From Escherichia coli (GTDB taxonomy: Bacteria; Pseudomonadota; Gammaproteobacteria; Enterobacterales; Enterobacteriaceae), in the NCBI RefSeq assembly GCF_003018255.1, contig NZ_CP027440.1: a DNA stretch of 64,000 bases. One strand, 5' to 3'. Each line of letters begins with the position of its first letter. Within the stretch, counting starts at the first letter, position 1. This document shows positions 44,901-47,900 of this stretch, in pieces. The position numbers were made by a program.

Positions 44901-47900
44901 CTTATTTGCCGAACCATATGCGTTTATGTCTAAATGACCACCGTTTTCCAGCAACACATTGTCTGCCACGTTATTGTGGATGGAGAATGCCCCTTCACTA
45001 TTCGTACCGCTCACCGTCAAATCGTAAGTCGTTACTTTCAAAGCGGCTCCATCGTGCTGAGTAACATTTGTTGCCATACCACCTCTAACATCAAGCACGC
45101 CACCGGAATAAATTTCAATAACATCCGAGGTGCTAGTGTAATCAACAATTTGCGTACCACCAGAATAGATCTGAGTATTTTTTGCCGTTGACTTACTATC
45201 CAGAGACTGAGTTCCACCTTCAATCGTCGTGTCCAGCGCACGGCTCTCATATACTCTTTGCTCACCGCCATTTTTAATGGTGGTTGTTTCTACTGTGCTC
45301 TGTTCAACATACTGTCGACCACCATTTATGGTTGTGTTCGTCGCCAGACTTCCTTGCGTGATGTCCTGATAACCGGACTTATTTATCGTTGTACCATCAA
45401 CATGCCCCTGAGTTGTTACTGTCTGCCCTCCACCATCAATGATGGTTCCATTCGCAGTCCCCCCACTTATGTGTGAATTACCACCCTTAATTGTCGTTCC
45501 ATTGCTGATACCACCTGTATAAACGTCCTGATTGCCACTCTCGATTATTGTACCTGTGGAAATACCCCCGTCATGAATTGACTGTCTGCCCCCGTTAATG
45601 GTTGTATTATTAGCCTGCCCCACAAAATTGTTATGACCTCCTACATCTTGATATCCACCCGATTCAATAAGACTTCCATTAGATATCCCGCCATAAACAT
45701 TCTGCTGGCCATGGTTGATAATATGAGTGTTATTTGTTGTACCTCGTTCATCTACTTTTTGGCTGCCATCTACAGTCTCATCGTTTACCACACCAATAAC
45801 ATCAGGAGTGAAGGCCGCCATCCCGGGCGGGGCATATATCAAGGCAGATATCAATAAGGAAAGTACTGAGCGACGACAATAATAGGGACTGGTCCTGTTC
45901 ATAAATTTCATCCTCTGAAAAGTGAATACTGAGTAGCGTTTAAGCGACCTTAGCTTTGCTGCAACATCAGCCCACAGGCACCAGACCAGGGGATTCATCC
46001 TGAAGAGACAGCGCAAGTGTATTGTGTTCACCGCTCATCAAAGACATCATGATGAAATGATGATATTCCGCATAAGAATGAGGCATTTTTTAAACGCAGT
46101 GCGCTGAAGTGTGGTTGGATAAAAAAGTCAATCTATTCAGGAAACACGGGCGTATTCTTTTCTTTCGACAATCAGGCAGTCGGAAAAATAAAATGATTTA
46201 CATAATCGTTTCTGATGAATATCTTCTGCTCACATAAAAATCACACAATAACTCTGAGATCGCAGATTGTTTTACTTTTACAGCTTCCGTCCCCCCATTG
46301 TTGGGCAAATATAGATTGGGCCAGAGCACGAAAGTTAATACCACGTTCGCACAGCTCCTCCAACAGCACGACAAGATGCCACATACTGCGCCCCAGTCGG
46401 TTCAGTTTACAGACTAGCAGTGCGTCCCCTACCGATAATGTCCTGAGCCGTTTGTTCTGTCCGGGCCTGCTGCCACGGTTATGCGCTGAAGTGGTAACTC
46501 TGAGCACGCAGTTCTTCAGTCAGGCGTGGTGCACCGTCACCCTATTATTGCTGGGTAAGATCAAAAAACTTTCAAGCAGCTAAGGAAAGTTGAACCAGAC
46601 ATTAGATGAAATATTTCAACCAATTACAGCACCAGTTCAGACACCGCCAACTCATCAAATAAATCAAGGGGTTACGTGAAAGCGTAGCCCCTTTTACTTT
46701 GGTAGTGACAGCAAAATGGATGCAGTGTGAAGAATAATCCCGTTTACTCAATCAATAATACATATTATTTCAATCTACGTTATTATTTCTTTGTAAAAAT
46801 CGCCATTTATTTATCATTGAAAACTGCTTTTAGAACTTTATACAAGGGGACTAGTCACAACAGGACTATTCTCAACGGGCTCATCCTCAGAGGAACTATC
46901 ATCAAAGTCATCATCCATAGATGAAATACCATCGAATGGTGCCACGCCCGTGATTAGTTTTATTTTATTATTACGATCAGTCAAGACTCCATTTAAACCA
47001 TTTTCGCTGACGGATTTTAATAATTTATCATAACTCTTATTGTCATCAGGCACATTAAAAATACACGGAGTATCAACATCAAACAATGACGTTCCCCAGT
47101 TCACATATTTAATATCATAGTTACTGAAGTTCTATCCAGAAAAGAAGCATCCCTTAAAATCCAATCCACCTAAATTATATAAACCACCCTCTTCTTTTTG
47201 GAGAGCAATGTTAATTTTGGCTATCTCCCGGACATCATCGCCATTTTTGTATTTGAATACCGTTTCAAGATGTTCTCCAGACAGCTTGACTTCTGGAAAT
47301 AATTTGAAATTAAACCCTACATTATTATGTGTCAACGTAGATGAACAAAAGATGGAAAAAGCTTGCAGTGCTGAATTATAGCTATCGATTTTATCTTGAG
47401 GCTGCGCTCTTGGTAAAAACTTATAGCAACACTCATAAAAATTAAGTAGAAACTCTGATGACCTTCCATTTTTATCAAATAATACCCGCTGAAAATGCTG
47501 CACAAACTTATTCGTTTTTTCTTGAATATCTACGGTGTGTTCCTTTGACTCTGACAAAGATGAAGCCTGTTGAAGTGCATTGCTCATCTGGTTAATGAAC
47601 ATGTGCATTTCTTTAAATTTATCTCCATAGTGACCTTTAACTTGCTGCGAGTTTTTAGCTACAGGTGAAATCTTATCTATTTGGTTGTCATATAAATTAT
47701 GTGATTCCATACAGTCATTTGGCGGCGTTTCTGAAATAACACTACGTGTTCTACCTGGCTGAAGTGAAGCAACATGAAAATCACTTTTTATTATATTATC
47801 GAAAAGGGCCTGTTCATTTCTTTTAGCGGATTGAACATACTGATCAATATTATTTTCTCTCGATAATTTGTTATTTTCAGAAAACACATTTTCTTTAATC

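What the first reader, a model, noticed from the sequence alone, without database searches (positions are those of the whole stretch)
46668..46700. Orphan plus-strand intrinsic-terminator-like hairpin in the pinH-ypjB/C spacer
ggggttacg-tgaaag-cgtagcccc followed by ttttacttt reads as a rho-independent terminator on the plus strand, yet no plus-strand gene ends here. It may mark the 3' end of an unannotated small RNA or of an antisense transcript to the pinH remnant.
Basis: seen in the sequence. Interest (0 to 1): 0.25.

Follow-up and report, generated by a model that had tools for sequence, protein, structure and literature searches.

The report
Stranded tmRNA-gene terminator from an old prophage
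The hairpin is a real terminator, but it is a leftover: a P2-like phage once supplied it as the stop signal for the tmRNA gene (ssrA), and a later island insertion pushed it 5.5 kb away, so it is a fossil of repeated integration, not a sign of a hidden small RNA.

Summary
At 46668-46691 (+) there is a 10-12 bp GC-rich stem with a GAAA tetraloop, followed by TTTTACTTT (-19.8 kcal/mol, z -4.4 to -5.1).

The hairpin is not associated with a hidden gene. With its flanks (46635-46725) it is homologous to the DNA that directly follows the tmRNA gene ssrA in lysogens of Fels-2/SopEPhi-type P2-like phages. The same DNA lies in the attP of free phages, in the order ssrA 3' end, 10-nt linker, this hairpin, T tract, 186-type integrase arm repeats.

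In the window the arm repeats are decayed. The "ssrA 3' end" is the diverged copy that ends P4-integrase islands such as CP4-57 (attR, like K-12 psaA). The intact ssrA lies at 40805-41167, and the ypjA-pin island sits between it and the hairpin.

So this is a former ssrA terminator, stranded by later integrations at ssrA. E. coli lineages carry stem-breaking variants, and diversity in the hairpin equals that of its flanks. K-12 Term-seq tables list no 3' end here. An sRNA or antisense reading is not supported.

Side observation: the same 24-nt hairpin follows tRNA-Asn, -Thr, -Met, -Phe, -Lys and -Leu genes in beta-, gamma- and deltaproteobacteria.

The parts
40805..41167 (+). Intact ssrA (tmRNA) gene, the gene the hairpin once terminated
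   Evidence: ARAGORN tmRNA with tag ANDENYALAA. The only copy of the 25-nt ssrA 3' end with 3 or fewer mismatches in the window.
41168..46576 (.). Body of the ypjA-pin island inserted at the ssrA 3' end. It holds ypjA at 41328-46031 (-) and the pin remnant at 46241-46507 (-), and has no integrase.
   Evidence: Annotation of a strain identical over 46100-47200. The left end ATCATGATTGGACGG equals what follows psaA in K-12 and the P4-like satellite in JNE23-011. The pin fragment covers Resolvase domain positions 43-102 of 145.
41295..41319 (.). Hairpin AAAGCCCAC-AGAT-GTGGGCTTTTT between ssrA and the convergent ypjA. It is the likely present-day terminator for both genes.
   Evidence: Read from the sequence. 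Function is inferred.
46577..46657 (+). Right end (attR arm) of a P4-integrase-type island, ending in a diverged ssrA 3' end (GTTCAGACACCGCCAACTCATCA, 46635-46657)
   Evidence: Aligns with the right end of CP4-57 before psaA in K-12, and with Citrobacter and Kosakonia copies and the JNE23-011 satellite right end. It has the 12-nt (deltaT357) length typical of P4-integrase islands (PMC10107115 Table 1).
46658..46667 (+). A-rich linker AATAAATCAA between the ssrA CCA end and the hairpin. AATCAAGGGGTTA (46662-46674) matches the IHF consensus WATCAANNNNTTR.
   Evidence: Identical linker in E. coli P2-like lysogens. The IHF match alone is not significant (3 in the window against 2.9 expected).
46668..46700 (+). 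The hairpin (46668-46691) and its T tract (46692-46700): a former ssrA terminator from the P' arm of a phage attP
   Evidence: The 24 nt are identical to the copy that directly follows intact ssrA in P2-like lysogens and in phage attP.
46705..46725 (+). Decayed 186-type integrase arm repeats (GTGACAGCAAAATGGATGCAG; the intact form is GTGGCGGCAAAATGGCGACAG)
   Evidence: Alignments with Fels-2 and E. coli prophages. The 186-type arm consensus tgccGCCActt (reverse complement) is given in PMC3448106. BLAST homology to phages ends at 46725.
46838..48292 (-). ypjCB pseudogene (DUF5507 + DUF5508). Its stop lies 146 nt from the hairpin, which could act as a weak minus-strand terminator for it.
   Evidence: Annotation, Pfam on an intact homologue, minus-strand fold -13.9 kcal/mol.

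Best explanation
The hairpin is a fossil of the ssrA (tmRNA gene) terminator that Fels-2/SopEPhi-type P2-like phages, which use a 186-type integrase, carry in the P' arm of their attP.

These phages integrate into the 3' end of ssrA. They replace that end with their own copy, followed by a 10-nt A-rich linker, this GNRA-looped hairpin with a U tract, and the integrase arm repeats. In a lysogen the hairpin therefore ends the ssrA transcript. In the free phage it lies about 170 nt downstream of int on the same strand.

In the lineage of this window the prophage was later deleted, leaving about 70 bp (linker, hairpin, decayed arm repeats). A P4-integrase-type island carrying ypjA and a pin fragment then integrated into ssrA. 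That moved the old terminator 5.5 kb downstream and placed the island's own diverged ssrA-like right end directly against it. K-12 added CP4-57 on top, and strain JNE23-011 added a P4-like satellite.

Today the hairpin has no gene of its own. It should still stop any RNA polymerase that reaches it on the + strand, and less well on the - strand, but it is evolving like its neutral flanks.

Shown here: the homology, the anatomy, the polymorphism and the lack of mapped 3' ends. Inferred: the order of events, terminator activity, and any IHF binding.
For: 1. Homology to phage attL/attP. BLAST of 46480-46860 against phages hits only 46644-46725. All 33 records are enterobacterial Peduoviridae, matched at their ssrA-type attachment site, including the annotated Fels-2 attP.
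2. Alignment. The window copy matches intact ssrA plus linker, hairpin and arm repeats in E. coli 13P477T and Fels-2.
3. Lysogen example. In E. coli 07-4299, intact ssrA is followed directly by the hairpin and then ogr, D, U and tail genes. The other end of that prophage has the 45-nt ssrA core but no hairpin, so the hairpin is carried by the phage.
4. Free phage genomes. Yersinia MLG42 shows cI, int, attP with the hairpin, cargo genes, then D. Cronobacter ESSI-2 has the hairpin about 160 nt downstream of int.
5. Breadth. At least 120 IMG/VR contigs carry the hairpin next to ssrA or a 33-50 nt ssrA fragment, followed by either 186-type or P2-type arm repeats. These repeat types are described in PMC3448106.
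6. Upstream block. It is the conserved right end of P4-integrase islands, with the deltaT signature listed in PMC10107115.
7. Strand polarity. The + fold is -19.8 and the - fold -13.9 kcal/mol. Phage variants keep the pairing and the GNRA loop (GAAA to GCAA).
8. Relaxed constraint in E. coli. Nucleotide diversity (pi) is 0.069 in the hairpin against 0.054-0.065 in the flanks. The K-12, WP5 and O121 variants each break a pair, with MFE -13.7 to -15.1.
Against: - No E. coli genome in the collection shows the postulated intermediate (intact ssrA, then this decayed stub, then ypjCB). The order of events is therefore inferred.
- The pin remnant lies on the island side of the hairpin, although P2-like prophages also carry an invertase. 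Its origin is unresolved.
- The window's own copy is fully intact, so some residual use cannot be excluded.
- The Term-seq negatives come from K-12, which has a weakened variant, and from a few growth conditions.
- Outside enterobacteria the same hairpin sits next to tRNA genes with no phage genes nearby and was not found in viral contigs with those linkers. The claim that it is always phage-borne is shown only for enterobacterial ssrA.
Confidence: 0.82

Rival explanations
1. The hairpin is the 3' end of an unannotated small RNA, or of an antisense transcript across the pin remnant.
For: The + strand hairpin with its U tract is canonical and intact in this strain. Two promoter-like hexamer pairs lie about 450-500 nt upstream on the + strand, with hexamers spanning 46165-46194 and 46197-46225. 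PGAP calls a + strand hypothetical protein over part of 46215-46583 in one strain.
Against: Promoter-like hits in the region are fewer than in shuffles (15 against 19.6), and none lies in 46508-46667. There is no Rfam match and no Pfam family for the + ORF. No 3' end appears in the K-12 Term-seq, TERMITe or SMRT-Cappable-seq tables, and the positive control works. Stem-breaking polymorphisms occur and diversity equals that of the flanks. No paper mentions an RNA here. The homology fully accounts for the hairpin without a new gene.
Confidence: 0.06
2. The relic has been co-opted as the minus-strand (or bidirectional) terminator of ypjCB/ypjB, as it probably is for ogr or cargo genes in the phage.
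For: It is the first hairpin downstream of the ypjCB stop (146 nt away). The - strand folds to -13.9 kcal/mol and is followed by UUGAUUUAUUU. In phages, ogr or cargo genes converge on it.
Against: The - strand stem has a C.A mismatch and an interrupted U tract, and the terminator scan does not call it on the - strand. ypjCB is a pseudogene here and in many strains. K-12 tables list no - strand 3' end. There is no extra conservation.
Confidence: 0.1
3. The hairpin is the native chromosomal ssrA terminator of enterobacteria, copied by phages and merely displaced here, and not of phage origin.
For: The same hairpin follows tRNA genes in many bacteria with ordinary-looking genes downstream. A phage attP could have captured host flanking DNA.
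Against: In every enterobacterial copy the hairpin is followed by integrase arm repeats. It is present in free phage attP. It is absent from the distal junction of the prophage in 07-4299, and the identity block annotated for Fels-2 stops before it. P4-type elements supply a different ssrA terminator.
Confidence: 0.06

Closest known systems
psaA (b4645), the pseudo-ssrA fragment at the right end of CP4-57 in E. coli K-12
   Same: Both are ssrA 3'-end look-alikes left at the distal junction of a P4-integrase island integrated in ssrA. The block at 46577-46657 aligns with the CP4-57 right end and has the same deltaT-length core.
   Different: This is a second, more decayed junction one island further out. 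It abuts a phage-derived terminator and arm-repeat stub, not the next island. It is not annotated in K-12 RefSeq.
attP / attL P' arm of Fels-2, SopEPhi and related 186-integrase-type P2-like phages (Peduoviridae)
   Same: The linker, the 24-nt hairpin and the T tract are sequence-homologous. The hairpin is 24/24 identical to the E. coli prophage copies, and homology continues into the arm repeats.
   Different: The arm repeats are degraded (GTGACAGC...TGGATGC against GTGGCGGC...TGGCGAC). No phage genes follow. The upstream partner is not a working ssrA.
Rho-independent (intrinsic) terminators, including bidirectional ones
   Same: GC-rich stem, a 4-nt loop, a U tract on the + strand, and an A-rich tract upstream.
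   Different: No transcription unit ends at it now, and no in vivo 3' end is recorded in K-12.
Lambda attP H' IHF site and the sib retroregulator (analogy of function only)
   Same: Geometry. A possible IHF consensus lies between the core and the P' arm repeats (46662-46674). The hairpin is downstream of int across attP and is separated from int by integration.
   Different: There is no sequence relationship. IHF binding and any effect on int expression are untested. Most enterobacterial phage copies have AACAA in place of ATCAA.
Terminator hairpins of Hfq-dependent small RNAs
   Same: A stable hairpin followed by a U tail.
   Different: No promoter, no conserved upstream seed region, no Rfam family, and no expression evidence.

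Membership tests
Intrinsic (Rho-independent) terminator | GC-rich stem of at least 5 bp with a short loop | tested here: met
   10-12 pairs, 6 of them G-C, GAAA loop; -19.8 kcal/mol, z -4.4.
Intrinsic (Rho-independent) terminator | U-rich tract immediately 3' of the stem | tested here: met
   TTTTACTTT at 46692-46700. K-12 and the phages have TTTTTCTTT.
Intrinsic (Rho-independent) terminator | RNA 3' ends map to the U tract in vivo | tested here: not met
   No entry at K-12 2,783,4xx-5xx in Adams 2021, TERMITe or SMRT-Cappable-seq tables. The ssrA control at 2,755,955 is present. Caveat: different strain with a weaker variant, and the region may be silent.
Attachment-site relic of an element integrated in ssrA | A fragment of the ssrA 3' end on the same strand as ssrA, downstream of the intact gene | tested here: met
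   46635-46657 aligns with GTTCAACTCCCGCCAGCTCCACCA. The intact gene is at 40805-41167.
Attachment-site relic of an element integrated in ssrA | Flanking sequence homologous to the arms of known elements | tested here: met
   The upstream arm equals the CP4-57 / P4-satellite right end. The downstream part equals the Fels-2-type P' arm.
Attachment-site relic of an element integrated in ssrA | Integrase arm-type direct repeats | tested here: inconclusive
   Recognisable but mutated 186-type repeats at 46705-46725. Binding is not testable here.
Bacterial small RNA gene | Own promoter at a suitable distance upstream | tested here: not met
   No promoter-like site in 46508-46667 (+).
Bacterial small RNA gene | Sequence or structure conserved above the neutral background, or membership of a described family | tested here: not met
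   Pi is 0.069 against 0.054-0.065 in the flanks, with disruptive variants. No Rfam hit at E <= 10.
IHF binding site | Match to WATCAANNNNTTR with an A/T-rich tract upstream | tested here: met
   AATCAAGGGGTTA at 46662-46674, preceded by CAAATA. The match is not significant on its own (3 found, 2.9 expected). ATCAA recurs before the hairpin in most non-enterobacterial copies.
IHF binding site | IHF binds and bends the DNA | not testable with these tools
   Needs a gel-shift or footprinting experiment.

The most novel reading that the evidence does not exclude
The hairpin is one copy of a roughly 40-nt, nearly invariant cassette (A/T-rich linker ending in ATCAA, then GGGGTTACGTGAAARCGTAGCCCC, then a T tract). 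On this reading, tyrosine-integrase elements place the cassette directly 3' of tmRNA and tRNA genes in beta-, gamma- and deltaproteobacteria, and it then serves as the resident terminator of those genes at the edge of variable islands. Invariance of the sequence, and not only of the fold, while the linker, a second hairpin and the downstream genes all change, would mean a sequence-specific role beyond termination. Candidates are an IHF H'-type site, or control of int expression that integration switches off. This has not, to my knowledge, been described.
Probability: 0.3. Interest if true: 0.5.

Novelty: new member of a known kind. Interest (0 to 1): 0.27.

Why it matters
For genome annotation, it explains an "orphan" terminator present in over half of complete E. 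coli genomes (3167 of 5426). It adds an unannotated junction to the K-12 map: ssrA, CP4-57, psaA, the ypjA island, a second pseudo-ssrA, then a P2-like stub. It also warns against reading stranded terminators as evidence of small RNAs.

It documents at base resolution how successive elements at ssrA each bring a fresh 3' end and terminator and push the older ones outward.

The side observation could matter more for understanding how integrating elements keep their target genes working. One 24-nt hairpin recurs after many tRNA genes in three proteobacterial classes.

Tried and rejected
- Rfam scan at E <= 10: nothing at the hairpin. A 24-bit sraA hit at 46130-46220 is far below the gathering score of 56.
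- Pfam on the + strand ORF 46215-46583 and the - strand ORF 46602-46751: no family.
- tblastn of intact YpjCB against phages, to test whether ypjCB is P2 cargo: no match.
- Search for the intermediate state (intact ssrA joined to this stub) in 5426 E. coli genomes: none. Best hits start at query position 37, which are the orphan relics themselves.
- Search for a second copy of the tRNA 3' end (a distal junction) downstream of the hairpin in 14 non-enterobacterial loci: none within the 0.6-7.5 kb available.
- Viral-contig scan for inner-stem variants: one hit, a T5C change that improves pairing.
- Viral-contig scan for the non-enterobacterial linker: zero hits.
[quoted passage not shown] Dar & Sorek 2018 and two other 3'-end papers have no held supplements. 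No paper discusses the pinH-ypjB spacer.
- The hairpin as a recombinase core site (9-bp inverted repeats with a 6-bp spacer): rejected for enterobacteria, because the prophage junctions duplicate the ssrA end and not the hairpin.

Full report
**Observation**

- The outer bases of the "loop" also pair (U-G), leaving a GAAA tetraloop. The flanking AA/UU extend the stem to 12 pairs.
- As + strand RNA it folds to -19.8 to -20.5 kcal/mol, z -4.4 to -5.1, and none of 200 shuffles folds as well.
- It is the best terminator-like site in 44-50 kb.
- The reverse strand folds to only -13.9 kcal/mol, because two G.U pairs become C.A mismatches. The element is therefore polar, built for the + strand.
- Annotation of a genome identical over 46100-47200 places it between a recombinase (pin) fragment at 46241-46507 (-) and the ypjCB pseudogene at 46838-48292 (-). 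The K-12 equivalent is the pinH-ypjB spacer, with the hairpin at NC_000913.3 2,783,492-2,783,515.

**What it is**

A BLAST of 46480-46860 against GenBank phages matched only 46644-46725. Every hit was at the ssrA-type attachment site of an enterobacterial P2-like phage, including Fels-2, SopEPhi, RE2010, SEN8, Klebsiella and Cronobacter phages and Yersinia MLG42.

The alignment shows the full unit in these phages and their lysogens:
- the 3' end of ssrA (...GTTCAACTCCCGCCAGCTCCACCA);
- a 10-nt linker (AATAAATCAA in E. coli, AATAAAACAA elsewhere);
- this hairpin and a T tract;
- GTGGCGGCAAAATGGCGAC.

The last motif, read on the other strand, is the 186-type integrase arm repeat tgccGCCActt. Other ssrA phages have the P2-type repeat (GTCCAC...GTCCAC, i.e. 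tgTGGaCa) after the same hairpin. Both repeat types are described in PMC3448106.

Three lines show that the hairpin is carried by the phage.
- In E. coli 07-4299, intact ssrA is followed by the hairpin and then a hypothetical gene, ogr, D, U, the tape-measure gene and the sheath gene.
- The far junction of that prophage repeats 45 nt of ssrA but has no hairpin.
- In the circular genome of Yersinia phage MLG42 the order is cI, int, attP with the hairpin, cargo genes, then D. In Cronobacter ESSI-2 the hairpin also lies about 160 nt downstream of int.

In the window the arm repeats are degraded (GTGACAGCAAAATGGATGCAG, 46705-46725) and homology to phages stops at 46725.

**The "ssrA end" next to it**

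The block upstream of the linker is not a simple decayed copy of ssrA. It aligns with the conserved right end of P4-integrase islands:
- the CP4-57 right end up to psaA in K-12;
- a CP4-57-like island in Citrobacter, where it abuts the hairpin of an intact P2-like prophage;
- Kosakonia copies;
- the right end of the P4-like satellite of strain JNE23-011.

These ends carry CGCCAGC-CCACCA, the deltaT357 form that PMC10107115 lists for P4-integrase islands. P2-integrase phages carry the intact CGCCAGCTCCACCA.

The intact ssrA of the window is at 40805-41167. What follows it (ATCATGATTGGACGG...) is what follows psaA in K-12.

The window therefore reads: ssrA, then the ypjA-pin island ending in its attR, then the phage-derived linker, hairpin and arm stub, then ypjCB. 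K-12 has CP4-57 inserted before this array. JNE23-011 has an 11.4-kb P4-like satellite there, which the window lacks. P4-type elements bring a different ssrA terminator of their own. The window has a hairpin at 41295-41319 that probably serves ssrA and the convergent ypjA now.

**How it works, then and now**

In the phage and the lysogen, the hairpin is the first terminator after the ssrA CCA end. It therefore ends the pre-tmRNA transcript once the phage has replaced the gene's 3' end (inferred from position and form).

Natural variants in copies that are in use keep the structure:
- AG to GA in Klebsiella phage ST437phi4.1 moves the wobble pair;
- G20A in MLG42 turns it into a Watson-Crick pair, and its loop GAAA becomes GCAA, which is still GNRA;
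- T5C in one prophage does the same as G20A.

These copies fold at -17.7 to -21.7 kcal/mol.

The E. coli relics behave differently.
- Among nine haplotypes taken without regard to the hairpin, K-12 has an A.C mismatch, WP5 another A.C, and O121 a terminal G.A. Their MFE is -13.7 to -15.1 kcal/mol.
- Nucleotide diversity in the hairpin (0.069) equals that of the non-coding flanks (0.054-0.065).
- The window's copy happens to be intact.

I conclude that it is a neutral relic. It would still terminate + strand transcription if any arrived.

An sRNA or pin-antisense 3' end is not supported.
- No promoter-like site lies between the pin fragment and the hairpin, and such sites are not enriched in the region.
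- There is no Rfam match.
- The + strand ORF has no Pfam family.
- No literature covers this spacer.
- The curated Term-seq table of Adams et al. 2021 has no 3' end on either strand at 2,782,xxx, 2,783,4xx-5xx or 2,784,xxx, although it lists ssrA at 2,755,955.
- The TERMITe and SMRT-Cappable-seq supplements are also negative.

These negatives come from K-12, whose hairpin is weakened, and from a few growth conditions. A small probability remains.

**Rivals**

A co-opted minus-strand terminator for ypjCB is possible but weak. The stem is mismatched, the U tract is interrupted, the gene is often a pseudogene, and no 3' end is recorded.

A native chromosomal ssrA terminator is unlikely for enterobacteria. 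Every copy is followed by arm repeats, and the hairpin is missing from the distal prophage junction.

**Wider observation**

An exact-pattern scan of one genome per species found 26 loci where about 0.03 were expected.
- Besides enterobacterial ssrA, the same 24 nt lies 10-43 nt after the 3' end of tRNA-Asn, -Thr, -Met, -Phe, -Lys and -Leu genes. The hosts are Comamonadaceae, Chitinimonas, Spongiibacter, Allopusillimonas, Nitrosomonadales and Desulfovibrio.
- The hairpin is usually preceded by ATCAA. AATCAAGGGGTTA fits the IHF consensus, but that match is not significant on its own.
- It is often followed by short direct repeats.

A metagenome scan added 46 contigs, mostly with tRNA-Asn and resembling the Comamonadaceae genome loci.
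- The linker varies between contigs, and a second hairpin covaries.
- The downstream genes differ completely: LysR/TctC, thiolase, RTX, Mrr, and Hcp with a phage lysozyme and IS3.
- The 24 nt stay the same throughout.

The pattern was exact, so invariance is partly built into the search. No phage genes, integrase or distal repeat were seen in the short flanks, and no viral contig carries the non-enterobacterial linker. Whether mobile elements deliver these copies is open.

**Verdict**

The proposed transcript is not supported. The element is an unannotated example of a known kind, an attachment-site and terminator fossil at the ssrA integration hotspot. Interest is low to moderate. The cross-phylum hairpin is the part worth following up.

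Noticed in passing
L009-L033 (genome contigs) and L163-L208 (metagenome contigs); the hairpin position in each is listed: The identical 24-nt hairpin, usually preceded by ATCAA, follows tRNA-Asn, -Thr, -Met, -Phe, -Lys and -Leu genes in beta-, gamma- and deltaproteobacteria. 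It sits at the edge of regions whose gene content differs between close relatives. In the tRNA-Asn loci of Comamonadaceae and similar metagenome contigs, a second, covarying hairpin (CCACTAAAGT...ACTTTAGTGG) follows it.
   Followed up: partly
window 46629-46660: The pseudo-ssrA block is hypervariable among E. coli strains (pi 0.21, 20 of 32 sites segregating), against about 0.06 in the DNA on either side. This may reflect repeated recombination with the right ends of different P4-type islands.
   Followed up: partly
L162 29933-40654 (strain JNE23-011; absent from the window): The genome that is 100% identical around the hairpin carries an 11.4-kb P4-like satellite between ssrA and ypjA (int, psu, delta, sid-like, primase). 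A DUF4435 protein and an AAA ATPase lie between int and psu, the position of a known defence-gene hotspot.
   Followed up: no
L019 (DEQI01000374.1, 'Planococcaceae bacterium UBA3370' MAG): This 2.8-kb contig matches E. coli K-12 exactly over the 144 nt compared around the hairpin (the pinH-ypjB spacer). It is probably E. coli contamination of the metagenome-assembled genome.
   Followed up: no
L023, L024, L026 (Kosakonia), L017 (Proteus terrae): Here the hairpin with P2-type arm repeats is flanked by defence-like genes: SIR2 plus HerA, PIN_8, HEPN/Apea, a reverse transcriptase and DUF932. This fits ssrA-linked defence islands or P2 cargo hotspots.
   Followed up: partly
window 41295-41319: The hairpin AAAGCCCAC-AGAT-GTGGGCTTTTT lies between ssrA (+) and the stop of ypjA (-). 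It is probably the current bidirectional terminator of both genes.
   Followed up: no
window 46215-46583 (+): A 122-codon ORF antisense to the pin fragment. PGAP annotates its last 53 codons as a hypothetical protein (WP_000075277.1) in strain GN04592. It has no Pfam family and is probably spurious.
   Followed up: partly
window 49049-49124 (-): ARAGORN calls this tRNA-Met (CAT). RefSeq annotates it as ileY, tRNA-Ile(CAU), the lysidine-modified isoleucine tRNA.
   Followed up: no
L160 (E. coli LZHX12) and L006 (GN04592): In some strains the left side of the relic is replaced. In LZHX12 an IS1 and a relaxase gene lie left of the match, which begins at window position about 46688, inside the hairpin's 3' arm. 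In GN04592 a different sequence replaces the pseudo-ssrA block, and an IS5 lies between ypjCB and ileY.
   Followed up: no
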